Origin: a phage
Length of the DNA: 51,263 nucleotides
Reading direction: 5' to 3' (one strand)
Sequence record: PZ452599.1
Shown here: positions 15,824 to 44,065 of the stretch, in pieces
Layout of the letters: each line of letters begins with the position of its first letter
How positions within the stretch are numbered: position 1 is the first letter of the stretch
Notes under the pieces: generated by a model
Databases searched by the model: none
Seen by the model: the letters and a program-made list of their open reading frames with translations, nothing else
What the model was told of the DNA's origin: nothing
Translations under genes and position numbers: made by a program

Positions 15824-15848
15824 TACCCGCCTTGCGCGGGTATTTTTG
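15824..15848 (+). terminator. intrinsic terminator after gpI-like gene
   Basis: Hairpin TACCCGC-CTTG-CGCGGGTA followed by TTTTT; TATAAT-like element follows at about 15857. Confidence 0.6.
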
Positions 15849-15896
15849 TGCCTTTATAATGTGCAAACCAAGAAACAGCACAAAAGGTTAAAAGTC

Positions 15897-18800
15897 ATGG
15901 CTAAATATATGATAAGTGGCAGTAAAGGGGGCGGTCAAAAGCCCTACGTGCCAAAAGAGATGGAAGATAACCTGATCTCGATAAATAAGATTAAAGTTTT
16001 GCTTGCTGTATCTGATGGCGAGTGCGATCCAAATTTCACGTTGCGCGATCTTTATCTTGATGATGTTCCGGTTATTGCCAGCGATGGCACTGTTAACTAC
16101 GAGGGAGTTACGGCTGAATATCGACCAGGTACGCAGACGCAAGATTACATCCAGGGGTTTACTGACACATCAAGCGAGGTGACAGTTTCGCGAGATATTA
16201 CAGCAGACAATCCTTATGTTATATCTGTAACAAATAAAAATCTTTCTGCGATCAGAATCAAAATTCTGATGCCAGTTGGCATTAAGACAGAGGATAACGG
16301 CGATCTTGTTGGCGTAAGGGTTCAATATGCCGTAGATATGGCTGTTGATGGCGGTTCTTATAACGAGGTTATGAGAGATGTAATTGACGGCAAGACGAGA
16401 TCAGGATATGACCGCAGCAGAAGGATTGATCTTCCTAAGTTTGATGAGCGCGTTTTAATCAGAGTCAAGCGACTGACTCCAGACAGCACATCTTCAAAGG
16501 TGACTGATAAAATCAAACTGCAAAGTTACGCTGAGGTTGTGGATGCAAAATTCCGTTATCCTCTGACTGGCCTTGTATTCGTAGAATTTGACAGCGAATT
16601 GTTTCCTACGCAAATCCCTAACATTTCTATAAAAAAGAAATGGAAGATTATTAATGTGCCAAGCAACTATGATCCAATATCAAGAGAATATCACGGGTCA
16701 TGGGATGGGACTTTTAAAAAAGCGTGGTCAAATAATCCTGCTTGGGTTCTTTATGATCTGGTAACGAATCAGCGTTATGGGCTTGACCAGCGAGAGTTAG
16801 GAATACAGATCGACAAGTGGAGCTTATACGAGGCTGGCGTTTACTGTGATCAGAAAGTTCCAGACGGTAAGGGCGGTACAGAGCCTCGCTACCTATGCGA
16901 TATGGTGATCCAGAATCAGGTTGAGGCTTATCAGCTAATCCGTGACATTTGCTCAATCTTTCGCGGAATGAGCTTTTGGAATGGTGAGAGCTTATCAATC
17001 GTGATTGATAAGCCGCGCGATCCATCATACGTGTTTACTAATGAAAACGTCATCAACGGTGATTTTCAGTACACAACCGCAAGCGAAAAAAGCATGTACA
17101 CGCAGTGTAACGTGACGTTTGACGACGAACAAAACATGTATCAGCAGGACGTAGAGGGGGTTTTTGACACTGAGGCGGCATTACGATTTGGATACAATCC
17201 AACAAGCATTACAGCGATCGGGTGTACACGCAGGAGCGAAGCGAATCGTCGAGGTCGGTGGGTTTTGAAAACAAACCTTAGAAGCACTACTGTAAACTTT
17301 GCTACCGGACTAGAGGGGATGATTCCATCAATAGGTGATGTGATTGCTATCGCTGATAATTTTCAGAGCAGCAATCTAACGTTAAATCTTTCGGGACGAG
17401 TAATGGAAGTTTCAGGCTTGCAAGTTTTCGTTCCGTTTAAAGTTGATGCGCGTCCTGGTGATTTTATTATCATCAATAAGCCGGACGGCAAGCCAGTTAA
17501 GCGAACGATCTCAAAGGTGAGCGCAGACGGAAAAACCATTGAGTTAAATATTGGCTTTGGTTTTGATGTTAAGCCTGATACTGTTTTTGCGATTGACCGT
17601 ACTGACCTTGCGTTGCAGCAATACGTTGTGACAACTATCAGCAAGGGTGATGACGAAAACGAGTTTACCTATTCAATCACGGCTGTGGAGTACGATCCGA
17701 ACAAATACGACGAGATTGATTATGGCGTAAACATTGATGACAGGCCTACTTCAATTGTTCAGCCTGACGTGATGGAAGCGCCGGAGAATGTTCAGATCTC
17801 ATCTTATTCTCGCGTCGTGCAGGGTGTTAGCGTTGAAACTATGGTTGTTTCATGGGATAAGGTTCCTTACGCATCGCTTTATGAAATGCAGTGGCGAAAA
17901 GGTGATGGCAACTGGCTGAATACGCCGCAGACAGCTAACAAAGAGATAGAGGTAGAAGGAATTTACTCAGGGAACTATCAAGTAAGGGTTAGATCTGTTT
18001 CTGCAAGTGGGAACACCTCCCCGTGGTCAAAGATTGCAACCGCCACCCTGACAGGTAAAGTTGGCGAGCCAGGAGCGCCGATTAATCTTACAGCTTCTGA
18101 TAATGAAGTTTTTGGCATTCGTGTTAAATGGGGTATGCCGGAAGGATCAGGCGATACGGCTTACATTGAGCTTCACCAATCGCCAGACGGAACGGTTGAA
18201 AACTCAAGCCTGCTTACGCTGATTCCATATCCTCAATATGAGTATTGGCATAGCACGTTACCAGCGGGTCAAGTTGTATGGTATAGAATCCGTAGCGTTG
18301 ACAGGATCGGCAATGTTTCCGGCTGGACTGACTTTGTTCGCGGCATGGCGTCAGATGATGTTGAATCTGTTTTAGGCGACATTCTGGACAAGATTTTTGA
18401 TACCGAAGCGGGTCAAGAAATCAAAGAGAACGCCATAGACAGTGCCAACAAAATCAAAGACCAGGCGCAATCAATCATCCAGAACGCATTGGCAAACGAT
18501 GCTGATGTGAAATGGACGCGAGTACAAAACGGAAAGCGCAAGGCTGAATATGGTCACGCTCTTGAGCTTATCGCCAACGAAACGGAGGCGCGAGTAACTC
18601 AAATCGAAGAGTTAAAGGCTTCAATTGATGACGATATAGTTTCAAGTATCAAAACCGTTCAGGAAGCGATTGCCAACGAAGCAGAGACGCGAGCTACTCA
18701 AGTTCAGCAGCTTGATTCTAAATTTACGAAGGAAATAGACGGCGTAAAACGAGATACGGCTGCAAGTATTGGTGAGGTAAGGCAAACCATTGCTAATGAA

Positions 18801-19475
18801 TCAGAAGCGCGTGCTCAGGCAGTTCAGCAGCTTGACGCTAAGTTTACGAAAGAGATAAACGACCTTGACGAAGTGATCAAAACCGAAGTCGAGGCTAACA
18901 TCTCAGAAGTGAAACAGGCGATCGCTAATGAGACAGAGGCAAGGGTTCAGGCCGACCAGTCTTTAACAGCTAAATTCGGAGACGTTGAGTCAGCACTAGC
19001 AGAAAAACTTGATTCGTGGGCTAACGTTGATTCGGTTGGCGCTAAGTACGCTATGAAATTGGGCCTTACTTACAAGGGGCAGAAGTACAGCGCAGGAATG
19101 GTAATGCAGCTATCGCAATCGTCGCAGGGGTTGATCTCACAAATCCTTTTCGATGCTAACAGGTTCGCGATCATGACTAGCTCTACTGGCGGTACGTTTA
19201 CATTGCCGTTTGTAGTAGAAAATAACCAGGTGTTTATCAACAGTTTGTTGGTGAAAAACGGGTCCATTACTAACGCAATGATTGGTAACGTGATTCAGTC
19301 AAATAACTTTGTTCAGAATCAGCAAGGATGGAGGCTTGATAAAAATGGTAACTTTGAGAACTACGGAACGAGAGCGGGAGAAGGAGCTACAAAATTCACT
19401 AACGAAGGCTTAAAAGTGAAAGATGCAAATGGACGATTGAGAGTTGAGATAGGGAGAATAACCGGAAGTTGGTAA
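15897..19475 (+). CDS. tail tip / central fiber protein (lambda gpJ-like host specificity protein)
   Basis: 1192 aa from ATG 15897; NPAWVLYDLV gpJ-like motif; C-terminal IANExEAR tandem repeats; followed by bidirectional terminator. Confidence 0.85.
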   Translation: MAKYMISGSKGGGQKPYVPKEMEDNLISINKIKVLLAVSDGECDPNFTLRDLYLDDVPVIASDGTVNYEGVTAEYRPGTQTQDYIQGFTDTSSEVTVSRDITADNPYVISVTNKNLSAIRIKILMPVGIKTEDNGDLVGVRVQYAVDMAVDGGSYNEVMRDVIDGKTRSGYDRSRRIDLPKFDERVLIRVKRLTPDSTSSKVTDKIKLQSYAEVVDAKFRYPLTGLVFVEFDSELFPTQIPNISIKKKWKIINVPSNYDPISREYHGSWDGTFKKAWSNNPAWVLYDLVTNQRYGLDQRELGIQIDKWSLYEAGVYCDQKVPDGKGGTEPRYLCDMVIQNQVEAYQLIRDICSIFRGMSFWNGESLSIVIDKPRDPSYVFTNENVINGDFQYTTASEKSMYTQCNVTFDDEQNMYQQDVEGVFDTEAALRFGYNPTSITAIGCTRRSEANRRGRWVLKTNLRSTTVNFATGLEGMIPSIGDVIAIADNFQSSNLTLNLSGRVMEVSGLQVFVPFKVDARPGDFIIINKPDGKPVKRTISKVSADGKTIELNIGFGFDVKPDTVFAIDRTDLALQQYVVTTISKGDDENEFTYSITAVEYDPNKYDEIDYGVNIDDRPTSIVQPDVMEAPENVQISSYSRVVQGVSVETMVVSWDKVPYASLYEMQWRKGDGNWLNTPQTANKEIEVEGIYSGNYQVRVRSVSASGNTSPWSKIATATLTGKVGEPGAPINLTASDNEVFGIRVKWGMPEGSGDTAYIELHQSPDGTVENSSLLTLIPYPQYEYWHSTLPAGQVVWYRIRSVDRIGNVSGWTDFVRGMASDDVESVLGDILDKIFDTEAGQEIKENAIDSANKIKDQAQSIIQNALANDADVKWTRVQNGKRKAEYGHALELIANETEARVTQIEELKASIDDDIVSSIKTVQEAIANEAETRATQVQQLDSKFTKEIDGVKRDTAASIGEVRQTIANESEARAQAVQQLDAKFTKEINDLDEVIKTEVEANISEVKQAIANETEARVQADQSLTAKFGDVESALAEKLDSWANVDSVGAKYAMKLGLTYKGQKYSAGMVMQLSQSSQGLISQILFDANRFAIMTSSTGGTFTLPFVVENNQVFINSLLVKNGSITNAMIGNVIQSNNFVQNQQGWRLDKNGNFENYGTRAGEGATKFTNEGLKVKDANGRLRVEIGRITGSW
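18560..18980 (+). repeat. imperfect tandem repeats of about 123 bp (3-4 units) inside gpJ-like gene
   Basis: Repeated IANE(T/A/S)EAR...QQLD(S/A)KFTKEI units; clearest pair near 18666-18740 and 18789-18863. Confidence 0.65.
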
Positions 19476-19509
19476 AAAAAAAGGGGGCATAGCCCCCTTT
19501 AATTTTAAT
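19474..19509. terminator. bidirectional intrinsic terminator between convergent gpJ-like gene and leftward operon
   Basis: A9, hairpin GGGGGC-ATA-GCCCCC, then T-rich run. Confidence 0.7.
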
Positions 19510-20119
19510 CATAATGTGATGAATTTATAACCAAAACAGATGAAGCCGTGTAAATACCAACAGGACCAGAAGTTTGTGCAACCTGCCTAGATAAAGAATA
19601 TACCCCGTTGCCATACGCGGCAGCTTGAGACTCAAATATCATGAATCCACCTAAAGACGGATTACGCACAGAGTTTAAAGCTGTTAGTGATGGCATGATG
19701 GCGCAAGGGTATCCCAAGTTAACGTCAAAAGTGATCCCGCTTACAGATACAAGTTTTGCATCCAAAGGCTTCATCTTTCCATGATAAACCATCTCACCAT
19801 TAGCATTATAAAAAGCTATTCCGTGACTACCAGGAGGAGTAACCATATTGCTAAAAGCATAAACAAATACCTCACCTTGATTGTCTGACTTTTCTATCTT
19901 TATTGCGTGCTTCCCACCATTATTAAACTGAGTAAATGCTATGTATGATTTTGATGTTAATCTTACAAAAAAGAAGCACGGTCTATTTATTGGTATAGAA
20001 GTATTAAAAACGGTTCCTGTTCTTGCTGATATTTTCCCTTTATCTATAAGGTTAACAGGAGTGAAATCTGGACTTAACCACAATGATCCGTCTGGTTTTT
20101 TTATGCTCATCCCGTACAT
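19505..20119 (-). CDS. hypothetical protein; candidate receptor-binding protein (two-repeat)
   Basis: 204 aa from ATG 20119 (GGGGG 6 nt upstream); contains two copies of a ~60-100 aa unit also found in the upstream gene; lies between gpJ-like gene and Cor-like lipoprotein. Confidence 0.35.
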   Translation of the reverse strand: MYGMSIKKPDGSLWLSPDFTPVNLIDKGKISARTGTVFNTSIPINRPCFFFVRLTSKSYIAFTQFNNGGKHAIKIEKSDNQGEVFVYAFSNMVTPPGSHGIAFYNANGEMVYHGKMKPLDAKLVSVSGITFDVNLGYPCAIMPSLTALNSVRNPSLGGFMIFESQAAAYGNGVYSLSRQVAQTSGPVGIYTASSVLVINSSHYD

Positions 20120-20121
20120 TA

Positions 20122-20400
20122 TTACCCCCAAAAAGTATATATATATCTTGAGTCAGATCCAGAAAGTCCGCTCCATGTAACAGTATCACCGCTTACACCT
20201 AAACTTGGAGCGCCAGGATCTCCTCCGCGCCACGAACTCATTCCAACATATATTGCTTTCAACGACTTACCTGGCGGCCTGTTTGAGTAGGTCTTACTGC
20301 CAGATGATTGAGTAAATTTATCCAAGAAAAAAACTGGAGTTAAAAGGCCAGTAACATTTCTACCTTGCTCATCATATATTGCATACCCATATTCAGCCAT
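20122..20400 (-). CDS. hypothetical protein; candidate receptor-binding locus component
   Basis: 92 aa; GAGGTG RBS; start overlaps lipoprotein stop; YGYAIYDEQG motif repeated in downstream gene. Confidence 0.35.
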   Translation of the reverse strand: MAEYGYAIYDEQGRNVTGLLTPVFFLDKFTQSSGSKTYSNRPPGKSLKAIYVGMSSWRGGDPGAPSLGVSGDTVTWSGLSGSDSRYIYTFWG

Positions 20401-20674
20401 TTTTGCACCTCAAATCAATGAATTTTCTTTCATCTTGCCAACGGTTGATAAATTTAACTTCTTTATTGTCAACGCTCAACCTGTATTGCTTTTGGCTGAA
20501 TCTGTTTTCGCGGACAGCATTAATTTTAACTTCATGGAATCCGTTAACAGGGAATGTTTTAACGTTAAATTTTGCCGTGCAATCGATCTCCTTGAAGTTA
20601 CCAGTAGGCGAATAAGAACATCCGGTCAGAGCGGCTACGGTGGATATAACTGCGATTAATTTTTTCATCTTCAA
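20393..20674 (-). CDS. outer-membrane lipoprotein, Cor/Llp-like superinfection exclusion candidate
   Basis: 93 aa; signal peptide with lipobox LTGC (MKMKKLIAVISTVAALTGC); first gene of leftward operon driven by a motif-type promoter. Confidence 0.55.
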   Translation of the reverse strand: MKMKKLIAVISTVAALTGCSYSPTGNFKEIDCTAKFNVKTFPVNGFHEVKINAVRENRFSQKQYRLSVDNKEVKFINRWQDERKFIDLRCKNG

Positions 20675-33245: not shown

Positions 33246-33736
33246 TGAGCATAAAGAACAGGGTAGCGGCTGCGGCCTTTGGCGTTGCGGTTGCCTTGAC
33301 TTCTCCACTTCTTGAAGAGATCGAAGGGGTAAGATACAAGCCATACAAAGATATTGCGGGGGTATGGACGGTTTGCGCAGGAATCACCGGACCAGATGTT
33401 ATCCTGGGGAAAACGTACACTAAAAAAGAGTGTGATGCTTTGTTGGCTAAACATATCCAGGTTGCTAAAAAAGAAGTTGACAAGCAGGTTAAGGTTGACA
33501 TTCCTGATAGTATGCGTGCAGCAATGTACTCATTCACTTATAATGCAGGCGTGGGAGCTTTCAGAAATTCAACAATGCTGAAACTCATCAACCAGGGGAA
33601 ATTAAACGAGGCTTGCGATCAGCTTTATCGTTGGACGTATTACCATAACCCCAAAACAGGAAAGCGCGAGAAGTCTAAAGGCTTACTTAACAGGCGCAAG
33701 GTCGAATACAAATATTGCACGATGGATCTGAAATGA
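33245..33736 (+). CDS. SAR endolysin (T4/lambda-type lysozyme)
   Basis: 163 aa; TAATG overlap with holin; N-terminal weakly hydrophobic SAR-like segment; catalytic E-8aa-D-5aa-T triad. Confidence 0.7.
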
Positions 33737-34128
33737 TGAAGAAATTTTTACTTACACCAATCGCAATGGCGGTGATCTTGTCTGGATGTTCAAGCGTTAT
33801 GCCACTGACCGGATTAATCGGCAGTAAGCCGGAAATCACAGCACAGGCTGGCGCGGAGAACGTGAAGCAGACAGTTGGCATTACAGCAAAGCATGACGCC
33901 AGCACAAAACAGAAAACCACAATAAAGGAATCTGCGGTTGACAAGGTGGACACGTCCAGCAAGAAGGATTTCACAACATCAACCATTCAGGCCAATACCA
34001 TCAAGGCAGACAAAATTCAGGTCGTGCAGGGTAATAACGGCAGATGGTACGATCCAATAATCATATGCGTGGTTGTGTTCATTGTGCTGATTTGTCTTTA
34101 CTGGAGGGAAAAGAAAAAGGAGGCTTAA
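33733..34128 (+). CDS. unimolecular spanin (u-spanin)
   Basis: 131 aa; N-terminal lipoprotein signal with lipobox ILSGC and C-terminal [19 protein letters not shown]; overlaps endolysin stop. Confidence 0.65.
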
Positions 34129-41214: not shown

Positions 41215-41248
41215 TGCTATCTCCTGAGCGGTTCGTTTTGATGTGTGT

Positions 41249-41293
41249 AATGTACCCGATCAGACGACCTGAGTTTTAACAAAAAGTGCTATT
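41249..41293 (-). promoter_or_regulatory. motif-type promoter with conserved leader
   Basis: Motif 41273-41293; TACATT -10; leader ACACACATCAAAACGAACCG; upstream of gene 40942-41214. Confidence 0.5.
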
Positions 41294-41322
41294 TGACGGT
41301 TAGCGCCAGGATTGTGATCGAA

Positions 41323-41413
41323 ATAATCAGAAGTAATCATTCGTAATCAAATCACGTCAAAATGATGATTGCCTTTGCAAATTTGATGAGAAAAGTAATC
41401 ACGTTTAATCATT
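41323..41413. repeat. cluster of short GTAATCA / TAATCA iteron-like repeats
   Basis: At least five copies in 90 bp inside the 600-bp non-coding region; a related TTAATCATTAAT element occurs at about 21035-21047. Confidence 0.45.
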
Positions 41414-41831
41414 GGTTGCAGGGGAGATAGTGAAACCTTCCCCTCTTGCCTCACTTTTCCGCCTGGCTGTCAGTGGTTGTTATGTTCCGTTCCCACGTGT
41501 TTTTTTGTTGACCTTCCGCAAAATACGATAACAAAAAATAACAAACAATACCTATATAATACATTGAAAAATAAGGATTATTTATTTATATGTATCTATA
41601 TATTCTCTTTTGTTATCTTGGTTATTGTGGTATTTGGTGGGGGTATATAGTTTTTGTGTATCTGTATGTGTGTATGGGTATGTAGGGGCATATATATCTA
41701 TATGGCGCTTTCCGCGCGAAAACTTCGATAACAGGCAATGATAACATTGATTTATAAGGAAAAATAACGCCCATATTGTTATTGTGCCACCATATAAAAT
41801 TGATAAAACACGCGGGAACAAGAAAAAACAG

Positions 41832-41860
41832 TTGACACATTAAATAGCATTATTGATAAT
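41832..41860 (+). promoter_or_regulatory. sigma70 consensus-like promoter (TTGACA, 17 nt spacer, GATAAT) for the rightward early operon
   Basis: Hexamers at 41832-41837 and 41855-41860; GGAACAAGAAAAA box immediately upstream; RBS and ATG 41889 follow. Confidence 0.6.
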
Positions 41861-41888
41861 GCCCACACCTAACAACCAGGAGGCAGAA

Positions 41889-42353
41889 ATGAGCGAGCAA
41901 TCATTCACTGACACGCTGCGCCGTGCCGCTATTATGCTGGCTAACGGCGAGGAAGAGACGATCAAGATTCCTGACGCGTATTTGCAGGTCCACATGTTCG
42001 GCAAGAAGTCGGCAAGCAATCCGGCGGCCTACATTCGCCAGATCATGAGTCGAGTGCCAGAAGTCGCCGAGCGGGGGCGCGTATCCGTTACCCGTGGCGT
42101 TTACGGGCCGGAAGATGAAAACTTCGGTAGCACTTTCTACGAGGTGCGGATTGTTGAAGGTCGCCGCAAGGTTTACAACAAAGAGGCACTGGAAAGGGCA
42201 GTACGCCAGGCCAAGCGCAAAGTTGCAGAGGCGATCATTGATATGTCACCCAACCTGGCAAACTATGAGCCGGAAGAGTACGAAACATTATCAAAGGCCG
42301 TCGCTGACTTTCACGCGATGATCAAAAAAACTTTCCTGGAGGATGAGCAATGA
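41889..42353 (+). CDS. hypothetical early protein
   Basis: 154 aa from ATG 41889 (AGGAGG RBS); first gene after canonical promoter 41832-41860. Confidence 0.55.
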   Translation: MSEQSFTDTLRRAAIMLANGEEETIKIPDAYLQVHMFGKKSASNPAAYIRQIMSRVPEVAERGRVSVTRGVYGPEDENFGSTFYEVRIVEGRRKVYNKEALERAVRQAKRKVAEAIIDMSPNLANYEPEEYETLSKAVADFHAMIKKTFLEDEQ

Positions 42354-42613
42354 AAAAGGCATTAATCAGCGTTTTGGCGGCAATGGCATTCCTGACCGGA
42401 TGTAATGGTGATGGCGCTTACGTCGATGCGCAAATGGCTAACCCTTCCGATACTTACAACGTCAGAAAACTATTTACAGTTGATGGTTGCGATGTGTACA
42501 GGTTCAGCGATAGCCGATACGTGTACTTTACCAACTGCCAGGGTAGCGCAAACTGGTCAACTAACGAAGGTAAGTCGGTTGGTCACTACCAGAACACAAC
42601 AAACGTGAAATAG
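42350..42613 (+). CDS. lipoprotein (second; candidate superinfection exclusion or surface-modifying protein)
   Basis: 87 aa; ATGA coupling; signal peptide with lipobox FLTGC (MKKALISVLAAMAFLTGC). Confidence 0.55.
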   Translation: MKKALISVLAAMAFLTGCNGDGAYVDAQMANPSDTYNVRKLFTVDGCDVYRFSDSRYVYFTNCQGSANWSTNEGKSVGHYQNTTNVK

Positions 42614-42653
42614 CACTTTTTGTTAAAACGCCAGGTGCAAAGCCTGGCATAAT
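42611..42653 (+). promoter_or_regulatory. motif-type promoter
   Basis: Motif 42611-42629 (begins with stop codon of lipoprotein gene); spacer hairpin GCCAGG...CCTGGC; CATAAT 42648-42653. Confidence 0.5.
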
Positions 42654-42685
42654 AGCCTCATCGAAACGAGATTGAGGAAACAAAA

Positions 42686-42871
42686 ATGGCACGTCGCATC
42701 ACCAAAGACCTTAAAGTTCTTAACAAAGAAAACGTAGTTAAAATCCTGGTTATTTGGGGCTACAACGAAGAAACAGCAAAGCAGAAGGTAGAGGCAGGTT
42801 ATGACCTGGCTGTAAAAGCAATGCCAAACGACGACGCCAAAGGCATTGCAAACTATGTAGCTTTCTTTTAA
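42686..42871 (+). CDS. hypothetical protein
   Basis: 61 aa; GAGGAAA RBS; downstream of motif promoter 42611-42653. Confidence 0.5.
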   Translation: MARRITKDLKVLNKENVVKILVIWGYNEETAKQKVEAGYDLAVKAMPNDDAKGIANYVAFF

Positions 42872-43171: not shown

Positions 43172-44065
43172 ATGTTAAAACTTGCTGACATTAAATTCCC
43201 TATCACCTTCGAATCTCGCGGCATTGGTCATTACATTTTTACCGATGAAAAAACATGCCATAAGGTTGATATGAATAGCGACAAACTAAGCCCATCAACA
43301 ATGGAGATCCTGCACTTTATTGATGCGCACAATACGCATTACAACGCACTTAAAGACTATGGCTATGCAATGCCAGGCTACACATGTTTGCACTACAAGC
43401 CATATAAGGGCCAGGTGTTACCAGTGCGCTCACCGGAACGCGCAGAGATTCCGATGGTCAATATGAAAACCTGCGACTACAAAAAGCTGTGGTGCTTAAG
43501 TCTGGACAATATCAAGTATCCGATCACGTTCCACACGACTGGTAAGTCAACGATTCGCTACACATCGCGCGACAATGGCGTTTATAGCGATGGTACGAAA
43601 TCAGAGTTGAAAGTTGATTTCTTTGTCAACGGTCACAACAAATTCAATCCGCACAACGAAGAGGATAAAGTGTATTACGTGGAAGACATTACAAAACACT
43701 TGTTTGGAGAAACTCCATTCGGCGGCGGAAAGACGTCAATTCAAAAAATCATTGGCGAGGAGATCCACAAAGCGGCTGCCGAAATGAAAGCGCCTGGAGG
43801 CTGGCGTATTGATAAGAGCGCCTTTGCCTATCAAGAAATCGTAACGCAGGGCGCGATTGAAGATATGCCAGTTGCAGCCACGCTAAAAGGAGTCCGACTT
43901 GATGACGGCACATGGTATGAGTTAACGGCTACACCAAAGACGATCGAAATTCATGATGATGTTGTTATCCTTCTGCTTCACTACGGCGGCACTAAAAACC
44001 GGACTGTTGCAGGTGAGATCAGCATCAAGCGCGGAACGATGGTTAAGTGGAAGGTGAAGATTTGA
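43172..44065 (+). CDS. hypothetical protein with internal duplication
   Basis: 297 aa; AGGAGA RBS; two related segments (LADIKFPITFESRG... / LDNIKYPITFHTTG...). Confidence 0.55.
   Translation: MLKLADIKFPITFESRGIGHYIFTDEKTCHKVDMNSDKLSPSTMEILHFIDAHNTHYNALKDYGYAMPGYTCLHYKPYKGQVLPVRSPERAEIPMVNMKTCDYKKLWCLSLDNIKYPITFHTTGKSTIRYTSRDNGVYSDGTKSELKVDFFVNGHNKFNPHNEEDKVYYVEDITKHLFGETPFGGGKTSIQKIIGEEIHKAAAEMKAPGGWRIDKSAFAYQEIVTQGAIEDMPVAATLKGVRLDDGTWYELTATPKTIEIHDDVVILLLHYGGTKNRTVAGEISIKRGTMVKWKVKI

What the first reader, a model, noticed from the sequence alone, without database searches (positions are those of the whole stretch)
42350..42613. Second, unrelated lipoprotein gene in the rightward early operon
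An 87-aa protein with lipobox FLTGC is encoded second in the operon driven by the canonical promoter at 41832-41860. The phage therefore has two lipoproteins besides the spanin, one expressed with the candidate receptor-binding locus and one early. This suggests two exclusion or envelope-modifying functions.
Basis: partly seen in the sequence, partly recalled or inferred. Interest (0 to 1): 0.45.

Follow-up and report, generated by a model that had tools for sequence, protein, structure and literature searches.

The report
Early DUF4884 lipoprotein of T1-like phage
The 87-codon gene is real and encodes a small lipid-anchored envelope protein of the uncharacterised DUF4884 family, an optional, swappable early gene of T1-like and many other phages whose job is unknown but does not track the phage's receptor-binding genes.

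Summary
Observation confirmed. ORF 42350-42613 (+) encodes an 87-aa protein with a textbook lipoprotein signal (MKK, hydrophobic core, L-T-G-C18). It is the second, translationally coupled gene behind a near-consensus sigma-70 promoter. The window is a complete Warwickvirus-like (Drexlerviridae) genome with exactly three lipobox genes: this one, a Cor-like exclusion lipoprotein in the cor cassette (20393-20668, -), and a u-spanin (33736-34128). The two small lipoproteins share only the signal peptide.

The protein belongs to Pfam DUF4884. Members are about 80-100 aa: lipobox, a tether of about 20 aa, then a conserved core (LFxxDGCxVYRFxD...YFTNCxG) with an even number of extra cysteines. The family occurs in early or accessory gene arrays of many unrelated phages, in Pseudomonas prophages, and as a chromosomal gene in Bacteroidota. 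No function, solved structure or fold match was found.

Among near-identical phages the mature domain exists as old allele classes. Synonymous sites are saturated between classes, and dN/dS is 0.01-0.12 within them. The classes are grafted onto a conserved signal-peptide sequence and reassort independently of the cor-cassette and tail-fibre alleles. In other relatives the slot holds a DNA methyltransferase instead.

Best reading: an accessory periplasmic lipoprotein acting on a conserved envelope target, not a receptor mask like Cor, Llp or Rtp45. The function remains inferred.

The parts
41832..41860 (+). Sigma-70-type promoter-like site, TTGACA-17 nt-GATAAT, in front of the operon.
   Evidence: Consensus scan gives 11 of 12 matches, the best in 40.8-45.5 kb. 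Sequence read. Function is inferred only.
41889..42353 (+). First gene of the operon: a 154-aa DUF7174 protein with no signal peptide. Its stop codon overlaps the lipoprotein start codon.
   Evidence: Pfam PF23796, E=7.7e-29. The same gene pair is found in Rtp as rtp1 and rtp3. Alleles of 99%, 60%, 30% and 26% identity reassort against the lipoprotein alleles.
42338..42343 (+). Shine-Dalgarno sequence GGAGGA, 6 nt upstream of the ATG.
   Evidence: Read directly from the sequence.
42350..42613 (+). DUF4884-family lipoprotein gene, 87 aa plus stop codon.
42350..42403 (+). Lipoprotein signal peptide and lipobox (residues 1-18; Cys18 at 42401-42403). The DNA is conserved at 97% even where the mature part is replaced.
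   Evidence: Identity profile against MikeNSara. pS is 0.08 here against 0.75-0.93 in the mature part.
42404..42610 (+). Mature domain, which behaves as a swappable allele cassette. It comprises a tether (residues 19-37), a conserved core L41 F42 D45 G46 C47 V49 Y50 R51 F52 D54 Y59 C63 G65, then G74 K75 and a variable tail.
   Evidence: 52-77% nucleotide identity against 97-100% in the flanks. Conserved columns. AF2 model shows a 4-5-strand antiparallel sheet, pLDDT 71.8.
42614..42685 (+). Conserved intergenic spacer with two predicted hairpins and no U-tract. It is the right-hand boundary of the cassette.
   Evidence: RNA fold gives -25.5 kcal/mol, z=-3.7. Identical in MikeNSara apart from one loop base.
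42686..42871 (+). Conserved 61-aa DUF7421 gene, the fixed right-hand neighbour used as an anchor for comparing the variable slot.
   Evidence: Pfam E=4e-42. 92-100% identity in 16 of the 17 IMG/VR loci, 79% in L102.
20393..20668 (-). For comparison: the Cor-like exclusion lipoprotein of the cor cassette. The rest of the cassette is 20122-20400 (phrog_557) and 19505-20131 (phrog_425).
   Evidence: PHROG 1119 'Cor superinfection exclusion protein', E=1.7e-6, plus the cassette partners. Below threshold for NCBIfam Cor. Cassette described in PMC13164509.
33736..34128 (+). For comparison: the unimolecular spanin, with a lipobox and a C-terminal transmembrane segment.
   Evidence: PHROG 1804 'Rz-like spanin', E=1e-46. 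Sequence.

Best explanation
ORF 42350-42613 is a functional accessory gene of a Warwickvirus-like T1-type coliphage.

Expression (inferred). Host RNA polymerase transcribes it from the promoter at 41832-41860. It is translated by coupling to the upstream DUF7174 gene.

Processing and location (inferred from established lipoprotein biology).
- The pre-protein is exported by Sec.
- Cys18 is diacylglycerylated by Lgt. The signal peptide is removed by signal peptidase II. Cys18 is then N-acylated by Lnt.
- Residue +2 is Asn, not Asp, so Lol should carry it to the inner leaflet of the outer membrane.
- There a tether of about 20 residues holds a small beta-sheet domain in the periplasm. A C47-C63 disulfide probably stabilises that domain.

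Function (inferred). The domain is a stand-alone module of the DUF4884 family. Its core is conserved from Bacteroidota chromosomes to phages of Escherichia, Serratia, Pseudomonas and Xanthomonas. I therefore propose that it binds a conserved periplasmic or outer-membrane component, not the phage's own receptor. I propose that the phage uses it early to condition or protect the envelope of the infected cell. The most likely version is interference with later envelope crossing by competing phages at a step that does not depend on the receptor, or with an envelope-level host response.

Shown here: gene reality, family membership, lipobox, the cassette-like allele structure, the absence of linkage to the host-recognition modules, and dispensability.

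Inferred: lipidation, outer-membrane sorting, the disulfide, early timing, and the whole of the biological role.
For: Gene and signal:
- ORF, ribosome-binding site, ATGA overlap and lipobox.
- Promoter-like site.

Family:
- Pfam DUF4884 above the gathering score.
- An exhaustive HMMER search of the mature domain finds 263 cluster representatives, almost all 80-100 aa.
- 864 hits with the family profile.
- Invariant or near-invariant C18, L41, F42, D45, G46, C47, V49, Y50, R51, F52, D54, Y59, C63, G65, G74 and K75.

Envelope location, from 163 family members:
- 147 have a clear lipobox.
- Asp at +2 occurs in only 4 of those 147.
- The tether is 18-32 aa, median 20.
- 133 of the 147 have 2 or 4 further cysteines.

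Selection:
- dN/dS is 0.12 within allele class B and 0.01 within class C.
- Between classes the synonymous sites are saturated in the mature part (pS 0.75-0.93), against pS 0.08 in the signal peptide.
- Divergence from MikeNSara is confined to 42404-42613, with flanks at 97-100% identity.

Accessory nature:
- The slot upstream of DUF7421 holds DUF7174 plus DUF4884 in some relatives.
- In others it holds DUF7174 plus an unrelated phrog_31863 protein.
- In others it holds a DNA methyltransferase.
- The gene is absent from the first 8 kb of T1.

Stand-alone, phage-borne module:
- It lies in arrays of small same-strand genes in large phage contigs.
- In a set of IMG/VR loci, no neighbour family occurs in more than about 14 loci.
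- Pseudomonas copies lie beside integrases and YqaJ-like exonucleases.

Independence from receptor recognition:
- Phages with 98.5% or greater identity in the cor-cassette protein and 97.8% in Cor carry alleles only 49-66% identical to this one.
- Phages that share this allele carry the 86-87% cassette allele.
- The nearest lateral tail fibres are in allele-C phages.
- Rtp, whose LptD-specific exclusion lipoprotein is Rtp45, also carries a DUF4884 lipoprotein, Rtp3.
Against: - No experiment on any family member was found.
- No fold or solved-structure match gives a mechanistic lead.
- The structure model has only moderate confidence: pLDDT 71.8, with the tail below 50.
- No partner gene is conserved, so the target is entirely hypothetical.
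- The linkage test has limited power. The two cor-cassette alleles compared are 85-87% identical and probably target the same receptor.
- The early operon as a whole is mosaic; the DUF7174 alleles reassort as well. The allele pattern may therefore reflect general recombination rather than conflict-driven polymorphism.
- Chromosomal, non-phage copies in Bacteroidota fit a housekeeping envelope role equally well.
- Asn at +2 is not a strict guarantee of outer-membrane sorting.
Confidence: 0.4

Rival explanations
1. Receptor-masking superinfection exclusion of the Cor/Llp/Rtp45 type. The lipoprotein would bind the periplasmic face of this phage's own outer-membrane receptor and so stop adsorption or triggering of homologous phages. 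This would make a second mask alongside Cor.
For: - Its general anatomy matches Llp and Rtp45: a small, probably outer-membrane-anchored periplasmic lipoprotein with a disulfide (papers read; family statistics).
- Early expression would suit exclusion.
- Allele classes could in principle match receptor variants.
Against: - It is not in the locus downstream of gpJ, where all characterised examples lie.
- Its mature domain is unrelated to the Cor-like protein.
- Its alleles are unlinked to cor-cassette and tail-fibre alleles.
- It is present in Rtp (LptD user) and in FhuA-cassette phages alike.
- The core is conserved across phages of different phyla and in Bacteroidota chromosomes. That is hard to reconcile with a receptor-specific binder.
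Confidence: 0.1
2. Counter-defence or host-takeover factor. The lipoprotein would neutralise an envelope-located host function. Candidates are an outer-membrane or periplasmic defence, an envelope-stress sensor, decoy vesicle release, or a periplasmic nuclease. It would not act on other phages.
For: - The same genomic slot carries a DNA methyltransferase, a typical anti-restriction cargo, in sister phages.
- It sits promoter-proximal in an operon of small accessory genes.
- Old allele classes kept under purifying selection resemble specificity polymorphisms.
- It is widespread in early-gene arrays of virulent phages.
Against: - No known anti-defence family matched. Pfam, PHROGs and NCBIfam give only DUF or unknown.
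- No envelope-located defence is known that it would plausibly target.
- The Pseudomonas prophage copies fit a lysogen-expressed protective function at least as well.
Confidence: 0.2
3. A captured cellular housekeeping lipoprotein. The phage copy would do what the chromosomal Bacteroidota DUF4884 protein does, some general envelope-maintenance or chaperone-like role. It would simply sustain envelope integrity until programmed lysis.
For: - 229 loci were found in species-representative genomes, most of the 80 listed being from Bacteroidota.
- In those loci examined for neighbours, the gene sits among housekeeping genes as a solitary gene.
- The core is highly conserved between the cellular and phage versions.
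Against: - Enterobacteria, the hosts of this phage, seem to lack a chromosomal copy. No Enterobacteriaceae appear among the 80 listed genome loci, and there are no plasmid hits.
- Deep allele polymorphism among near-identical phages is not expected for a housekeeping helper.
- Frequent replacement of the gene by unrelated cargo is not expected either.
Confidence: 0.15
4. A lysis-module accessory: an anti-spanin, a lysis-timing factor, or protection from lysis-from-without acting on peptidoglycan hydrolases.
For: - It is a periplasmic lipoprotein, like o-spanins and MliC-type lysozyme inhibitors.
Against: - It lies 8 kb from the lysis cassette, at the start of a separate promoter-driven operon.
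- It has no C-terminal transmembrane segment and no spanin family match.
Confidence: 0.05
5. A spurious or decaying ORF whose lipobox is a chance match.
For: The ORF is short, at 87 codons. The Pfam score is only just above threshold: 30.8 against 30.
Against: - Hundreds of homologues share an invariant lipobox Cys and core motif.
- Purifying selection acts within allele classes.
- It has a proper ribosome-binding site and translational coupling.
Confidence: 0.02

Closest known systems
Pfam DUF4884 (PF16225), overlapping PHROG 6360 and 902: small lipoproteins of unknown function. Examples are Rtp3 of phage Rtp, gp86 of Pseudomonas phage Dolphis, and the 'DUF4884 domain-containing protein' of the JLBYU and Henu8 coliphages.
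   Same: - The window protein passes the Pfam gathering score.
- It carries every near-invariant family residue and the lipobox.
- In Rtp the gene holds the same position, after a DUF7174 gene at the left end of the genome.
   Different: - Its mature domain is a distinct allele class: 81-91% identical to only six database phages and 45-66% to the rest.
- It has two post-lipid cysteines. The four-cysteine version (CGKxC) is found in about half the family.
Cor (T1, phi80, N15), Llp (T5) and Rtp45 (Rtp): receptor-masking superinfection-exclusion lipoproteins.
   Same: It is a small phage-encoded protein with a lipobox. It is probably anchored to the outer membrane, faces the periplasm and is disulfide-bonded (papers read).
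   Different: - Mature-domain similarity was tested only against this window's Cor-like family, and none was found.
- It is encoded 22 kb from the locus downstream of gpJ.
- It is not linked to the alleles of that locus.
- It coexists with a Cor or Rtp45 gene in the same genomes.
- Its core is conserved across hosts with different receptors.
Receptor-independent exclusion proteins acting at the envelope-crossing step. From my own knowledge: T4 Imm and Sp, P22 SieA (paper listed, not read), and the Ltp lipoprotein of Streptococcus phage TP-J34.
   Same: This is the functional class I consider most likely. These are early or prophage-expressed envelope proteins that do not depend on receptor identity. 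Ltp is likewise a lipoprotein.
   Different: No sequence or fold relationship to any of them was detected. No exclusion phenotype is known for any DUF4884 protein. This is analogy only.
Spanins: the o-spanin Rz1 and the u-spanin gp11 of T1.
   Same: An N-terminal lipobox.
   Different: It is not in the lysis cassette, has no C-terminal transmembrane segment and gives no spanin family hit. The true u-spanin of this phage is at 33736-34128.

Membership tests
Pfam DUF4884 (PF16225) | Score against the family HMM at or above the curated gathering threshold. | tested here: met
   30.8 bits against a cut-off of 30, E=2.5e-7. This is marginal with the Pfam model. All close and distant homologues returned carry PF16225.
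Pfam DUF4884 (PF16225) | Conserved core motif LFxxDGCxVYRFxD...YFTNCxG...GK in a protein of about 80-100 aa. | tested here: met
   L41, F42, D45, G46, C47, V49, Y50, R51, F52, D54, Y59, C63, G65, G74 and K75 are all present. They are invariant or at least 90% conserved in the 60- and 108-sequence alignments.
Bacterial lipoprotein (signal peptidase II substrate) | Positively charged n-region, an uncharged hydrophobic h-region, and a lipobox [LVI][ASTVI][GAS]C with the Cys at position 15-35. | tested here: met
   MKK, then ALISVLAAMAF, then L-T-G-C18. The Cys is invariant in the 108-sequence alignment and at least 90% conserved in the 60-sequence one. 147 of 163 members have a clear lipobox.
Bacterial lipoprotein (signal peptidase II substrate) | Actual lipid modification and globomycin-sensitive cleavage. 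| not testable with these tools
   Requires labelling or processing experiments.
Outer-membrane (Lol-sorted) lipoprotein of Enterobacteria | No Asp at position +2 after the lipid-modified Cys. | tested here: met
   Position +2 is Asn (C-N-G-D). Alleles B, C and Rtp3 have K, E and K there. Asp at +2 occurs in 4 of 147 family members. Sorting itself is inferred from the '+2 rule', which I cite from my own knowledge.
Cor/Llp/Rtp45-type receptor-masking exclusion lipoproteins | Homology of the mature domain to Cor. | tested here: not met
   BLASTP finds no alignment. hhalign aligns only the 20 signal-peptide columns. NCBIfam Cor and PHROG 1119 do not hit this protein. Llp and Rtp45 sequences were not compared directly.
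Cor/Llp/Rtp45-type receptor-masking exclusion lipoproteins | Encoded in the locus directly downstream of the gpJ-like tail-tip gene. | tested here: not met
   gpJ-like ORF at 15846-19475 and cor cassette at 19505-20668. This gene is at 42350.
Cor/Llp/Rtp45-type receptor-masking exclusion lipoproteins | Allele co-varies with the receptor-binding module or with receptor specificity. | tested here: not met
   All combinations of cassette allele (98.5% or above, or about 86%) with lipoprotein allele class (A, B, C) occur. There is no link to the lateral tail fibre. The gene is present in LptD-using Rtp. Power is limited because both cassette alleles probably target one receptor.
Cor/Llp/Rtp45-type receptor-masking exclusion lipoproteins | Expression blocks adsorption or infection by phages that use the same receptor. 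| not testable with these tools
   Needs efficiency-of-plating and adsorption assays.
Spanin (o- or u-spanin) | Located in the lysis cassette. For a u-spanin, a lipobox plus a C-terminal transmembrane segment. | tested here: not met
   No C-terminal hydrophobic segment and no spanin family hit. The real u-spanin is at 33736-34128.
YVTN/beta-propeller blade repeat | Significant sequence match of the family to propeller blades. | tested here: not met

The most novel reading that the evidence does not exclude
DUF4884 proteins are a pan-phage class of receptor-independent, periplasm-acting effector lipoproteins. They would be derived from, or shared with, a core Bacteroidota envelope lipoprotein. 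They would bind a conserved envelope machine to block envelope crossing by rival phages or to disarm an envelope-level host response. The old, freely reassorting allele classes on a constant signal-peptide 'handle' would then be specificity types kept by frequency-dependent selection. This would be an envelope counterpart of immunity or anti-defence cassettes.
Probability: 0.2. Interest if true: 0.6.

Novelty: new member of a known kind. Interest (0 to 1): 0.35.

Why it matters
Small phage lipoproteins are among the few phage 'dark matter' proteins with proven, structurally understood roles. Llp blocks FhuA and Rtp45 blocks LptDE.

This gene shows that T1-like phages carry a second lipoprotein type. 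It is unrelated to the first and not linked to the receptor-binding locus. It belongs to a family found across phages of several bacterial phyla, and no function has been assigned to it.

If it proves to be an exclusion or counter-defence factor, it would point to a conserved envelope vulnerability that many phages exploit. It would also matter for designing phage cocktails, because phages carrying it might exclude their cocktail partners.

As it stands, it is an ordinary hypothetical accessory gene with a clear, cheap experimental path.

Tried and rejected

3. Relationship to Cor. Tested with BLASTP and hhalign and rejected.

4. Conserved partner gene. Neighbour clustering in 80 bacterial loci and in the IMG/VR viral loci found only genus- or lineage-deep synteny. 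The DUF7174 pairing holds in Drexlerviridae but not in Serratia phage MTx.

5. Linkage to host-recognition modules. None was found for the cor cassette, Cor or the lateral tail fibre.

6. Plasmid-borne homologues, as would suit an entry-exclusion idea. None found.

7. Literature. There are no papers on DUF7174, DUF7421 or PF16225, and only annotation-table mentions of DUF4884. The Rtp genome paper is not held. A search for a transcriptome that would verify 'early' timing found nothing for this phage group.

8. T1 itself. The first 8 kb contain no DUF4884 gene. The rest of T1 was not examined.

Full report
**What the window is**

Megablast of 41.5-44.5 kb finds 157 phage records at 80-99% identity. 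Almost all are about 51-kb Escherichia and Shigella siphophages. The two nearest relatives I inspected belong to Drexlerviridae, Tempevirinae, genus Warwickvirus. The 51,263-bp window begins with a 522-aa ORF and runs through structural genes. It therefore appears to be a complete T1-like genome.

**Checking the observation**

- The N-terminus has two lysines, an 11-residue hydrophobic stretch, and L-T-G-C with the Cys at position 18. This satisfies the standard lipobox rule.
- A GGAGGA ribosome-binding site precedes the ATG.
- The ATG overlaps the TGA of the upstream 154-aa ORF at 41889-42353.
- A TTGACA-17-GATAAT site at 41832-41860 is the best promoter match in the region, at 11 of 12 positions. 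The scan as a whole is not enriched over shuffles.

My own lipobox scan of all ORFs finds three credible lipoprotein genes:

- this gene;
- 20393-20668 (-), which matches the PHROG 'Cor superinfection exclusion protein' and sits with the two other genes of the published cor cassette;
- the u-spanin at 33736-34128.

The two small lipoproteins are unrelated apart from the signal peptide. The factual part of the finding is therefore correct. 'Early' is an inference.

**What the protein is**

It passes the Pfam gathering score for DUF4884 and hits PHROGs of unknown function.

- An exhaustive HMMER search with the mature domain returns 263 cluster representatives. Nearly all are 80-100 aa.
- A profile search returns 864 proteins, all listed ones carrying PF16225.
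- Alignments show one architecture: signal peptide, lipobox Cys, a tether, then a core with near-invariant L41 F42 D45 G46 C47 V49 Y50 R51 F52 D54 Y59 C63 G65 G74 K75.

Across 163 members:

- at least 147 have a clear lipobox;
- only 4 of those 147 have Asp at +2;
- the tether is 18-32 residues, median 20;
- 133 of the 147 have two or four additional cysteines.

This is the signature of a lipid-anchored, disulfide-bonded periplasmic protein. In an enterobacterial host it would be sorted to the outer membrane.

**Where the family lives**

- In annotated phages: 116 records. Most are Drexlerviridae of several subfamilies. Others are Serratia phage MTx, Pseudomonas phage Dolphis and a 200-kb Xanthomonas phage.
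- In Rtp the homologue is Rtp3, the third gene from the left end of the genome, after a DUF7174 gene. This is the same arrangement as here.
- In metagenomic contigs and IMG/VR loci it sits in long arrays of small genes. In the IMG/VR set 71% of neighbours are on the same strand and the median neighbour is 91 aa. No partner recurs.
- In species-representative genomes there are 229 loci. Most of the 80 listed are Bacteroidota, where the gene is solitary among housekeeping genes with only genus-deep synteny. The Pseudomonas copies lie next to integrases and YqaJ-type exonucleases, so they are probably in prophages.
- No homologue is on a plasmid. None is in the first 8 kb of T1.

**How it evolves in this phage group**

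Against phage MikeNSara the flanks and the signal-peptide codons are 97-100% identical. Identity falls to 52-77% from the codon after Cys18 to the stop codon, then returns to 100%.

Three allele classes are seen on near-identical backbones:

- A, this window;
- B, MikeNSara-type;
- C, JLBYU26-type.

There is also a C/B chimera (L089).

Between classes, synonymous sites are saturated in the mature part (pS 0.75-0.93) but not in the signal peptide (pS 0.08). Within classes dN/dS is 0.12 for B and 0.01 for C.

These are therefore old, functionally constrained alleles moved about by recombination. The conserved signal-peptide sequence and the downstream spacer act as the joints.

The gene is dispensable. 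Upstream of the conserved DUF7421 gene, sister phages carry one of the following:

- DUF7174 plus this lipoprotein;
- DUF7174 plus an unrelated phrog_31863 protein;
- a 234-aa DNA methyltransferase.

**Test of the exclusion idea**

Characterised exclusion lipoproteins (Cor, Llp, Rtp45) are encoded next to the receptor-binding protein and bind that receptor from the periplasm (papers read). This gene differs on each point.

- Phages whose cor-cassette protein is at least 98.5% identical to the window's, and whose Cor is 97.8% identical, carry DUF4884 alleles only 49-66% identical. Examples are JLBYU07, JLBYU10, JLBYU26, BEK12A, Poky, tonijn and brachmannus.
- The phages that share allele A (MatMar, BEBK14, WaterSpirit, Jahat) carry the 86-87% cassette allele.
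- The nearest lateral tail fibres belong to allele-C phages.
- Rtp, which uses LptD and has Rtp45, also has Rtp3.

A receptor-matched mask is therefore unlikely. One caveat applies: the two cassette alleles probably recognise the same receptor, so the linkage test is not strong by itself.

**Most likely mechanism and its limits**

I commit to the following. The gene makes an outer-membrane-anchored periplasmic lipoprotein early in infection. Its conserved beta-sheet core engages a conserved envelope component. The benefit to the phage is conditional, which fits an accessory gene. The most plausible benefit is receptor-independent interference with later envelope crossing by competitors. Next most plausible is neutralising an envelope-level host response.

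My confidence differs by layer:

- about 0.85 that it is a genuine periplasmic lipoprotein of this family;
- about 0.4 for the envelope-effector reading as a whole;
- about 0.3 or less for exclusion specifically.

The rivals are counter-defence, a captured housekeeping function, a Cor-like mask and a lysis accessory. Each is listed with its test. None can be excluded without experiments.

**Novelty**

The family and the phage homologues are already in databases as 'DUF4884 domain-containing' or hypothetical proteins. No function has been published.

New here:

- the family-wide description as a lipoprotein;
- the predominance of phage and prophage contexts outside Bacteroidota;
- the cassette-like allele structure;
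- the independence from the host-recognition modules.

That makes this a new member of a known kind, namely small phage lipoproteins. It has modest but real follow-up value.

Noticed in passing
window 41889-42685, compared with L086-L102, L001 and L002: The head of this operon is a cargo hotspot. Upstream of the conserved DUF7421 gene, related phages carry one of three things: DUF7174 plus the DUF4884 lipoprotein, DUF7174 plus an unrelated phrog_31863 protein (L086, L097), or a 234-aa DNA methyltransferase (L090, L091, L093, L095, L096, L098-L101). The DUF7174 alleles (99%, 60%, 30% and 26% identity) reassort independently of the lipoprotein alleles.
   Followed up: partly
L089 2662-2928: A chimeric lipoprotein allele. 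Its N-terminal two-thirds are class C (as in JLBYU26) and its C-terminal tail is class B (TSWEVSKSNGK...TEYMTVDTK). This shows recombination inside the gene.
   Followed up: partly
window 43240-43360: A second local patch of divergence lies inside the 297-aa ORF 43172-44065 (phrog_7116, unknown function). Identity to MikeNSara is 67-80% there, against 97-100% on either side.
   Followed up: no
window 42614-42685: The spacer after the lipoprotein gene folds into two hairpins (-25.5 kcal/mol, z=-3.7) with no U-tract. It is conserved in MikeNSara. It could be an RNA-stability, processing or attenuation element, or simply a recombination joint.
   Followed up: partly
window 41215-41888, especially 41324-41411: The 670-bp AT-rich region between the divergent operons contains TAATCA repeated at exact 10-bp phasing, at 41324, 41334 and 41344 and again at 41396 and 41406. 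It also contains several inverted repeats. These may be operator or iteron-like sites.
   Followed up: no
window 19505-20668 (-): A complete three-gene cor cassette (phrog_425, phrog_557 and a Cor-like lipoprotein). A 2026 paper associates this cassette with use of FhuA as receptor. The 204-aa protein also has relatives in Stx-converting and Klebsiella phages (401 records).
   Followed up: partly
L006, L007, L010, L012, L019, L024, L030: The Pseudomonas genomic DUF4884 copies carry a conserved C-terminal extension of about 40 aa (…GGNHQAGNERQLSPHE…), which the window protein and the aligned Drexlerviridae alleles lack. They sit in prophage-like regions beside integrases.
   Followed up: partly
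phage records MG0656xx: Records named 'Campylobacter phage' with host C. jejuni match this E. coli T1-like genome at 80-99% nucleotide identity and share its genes. The host assignment looks doubtful.
   Followed up: no
L102 3001-3186: A 79%-identical DUF7421 homologue lies in a 164.7-kb viral contig. It is preceded by several small ORFs rich in hydrophobic stretches instead of the T1-like operon head.
   Followed up: no
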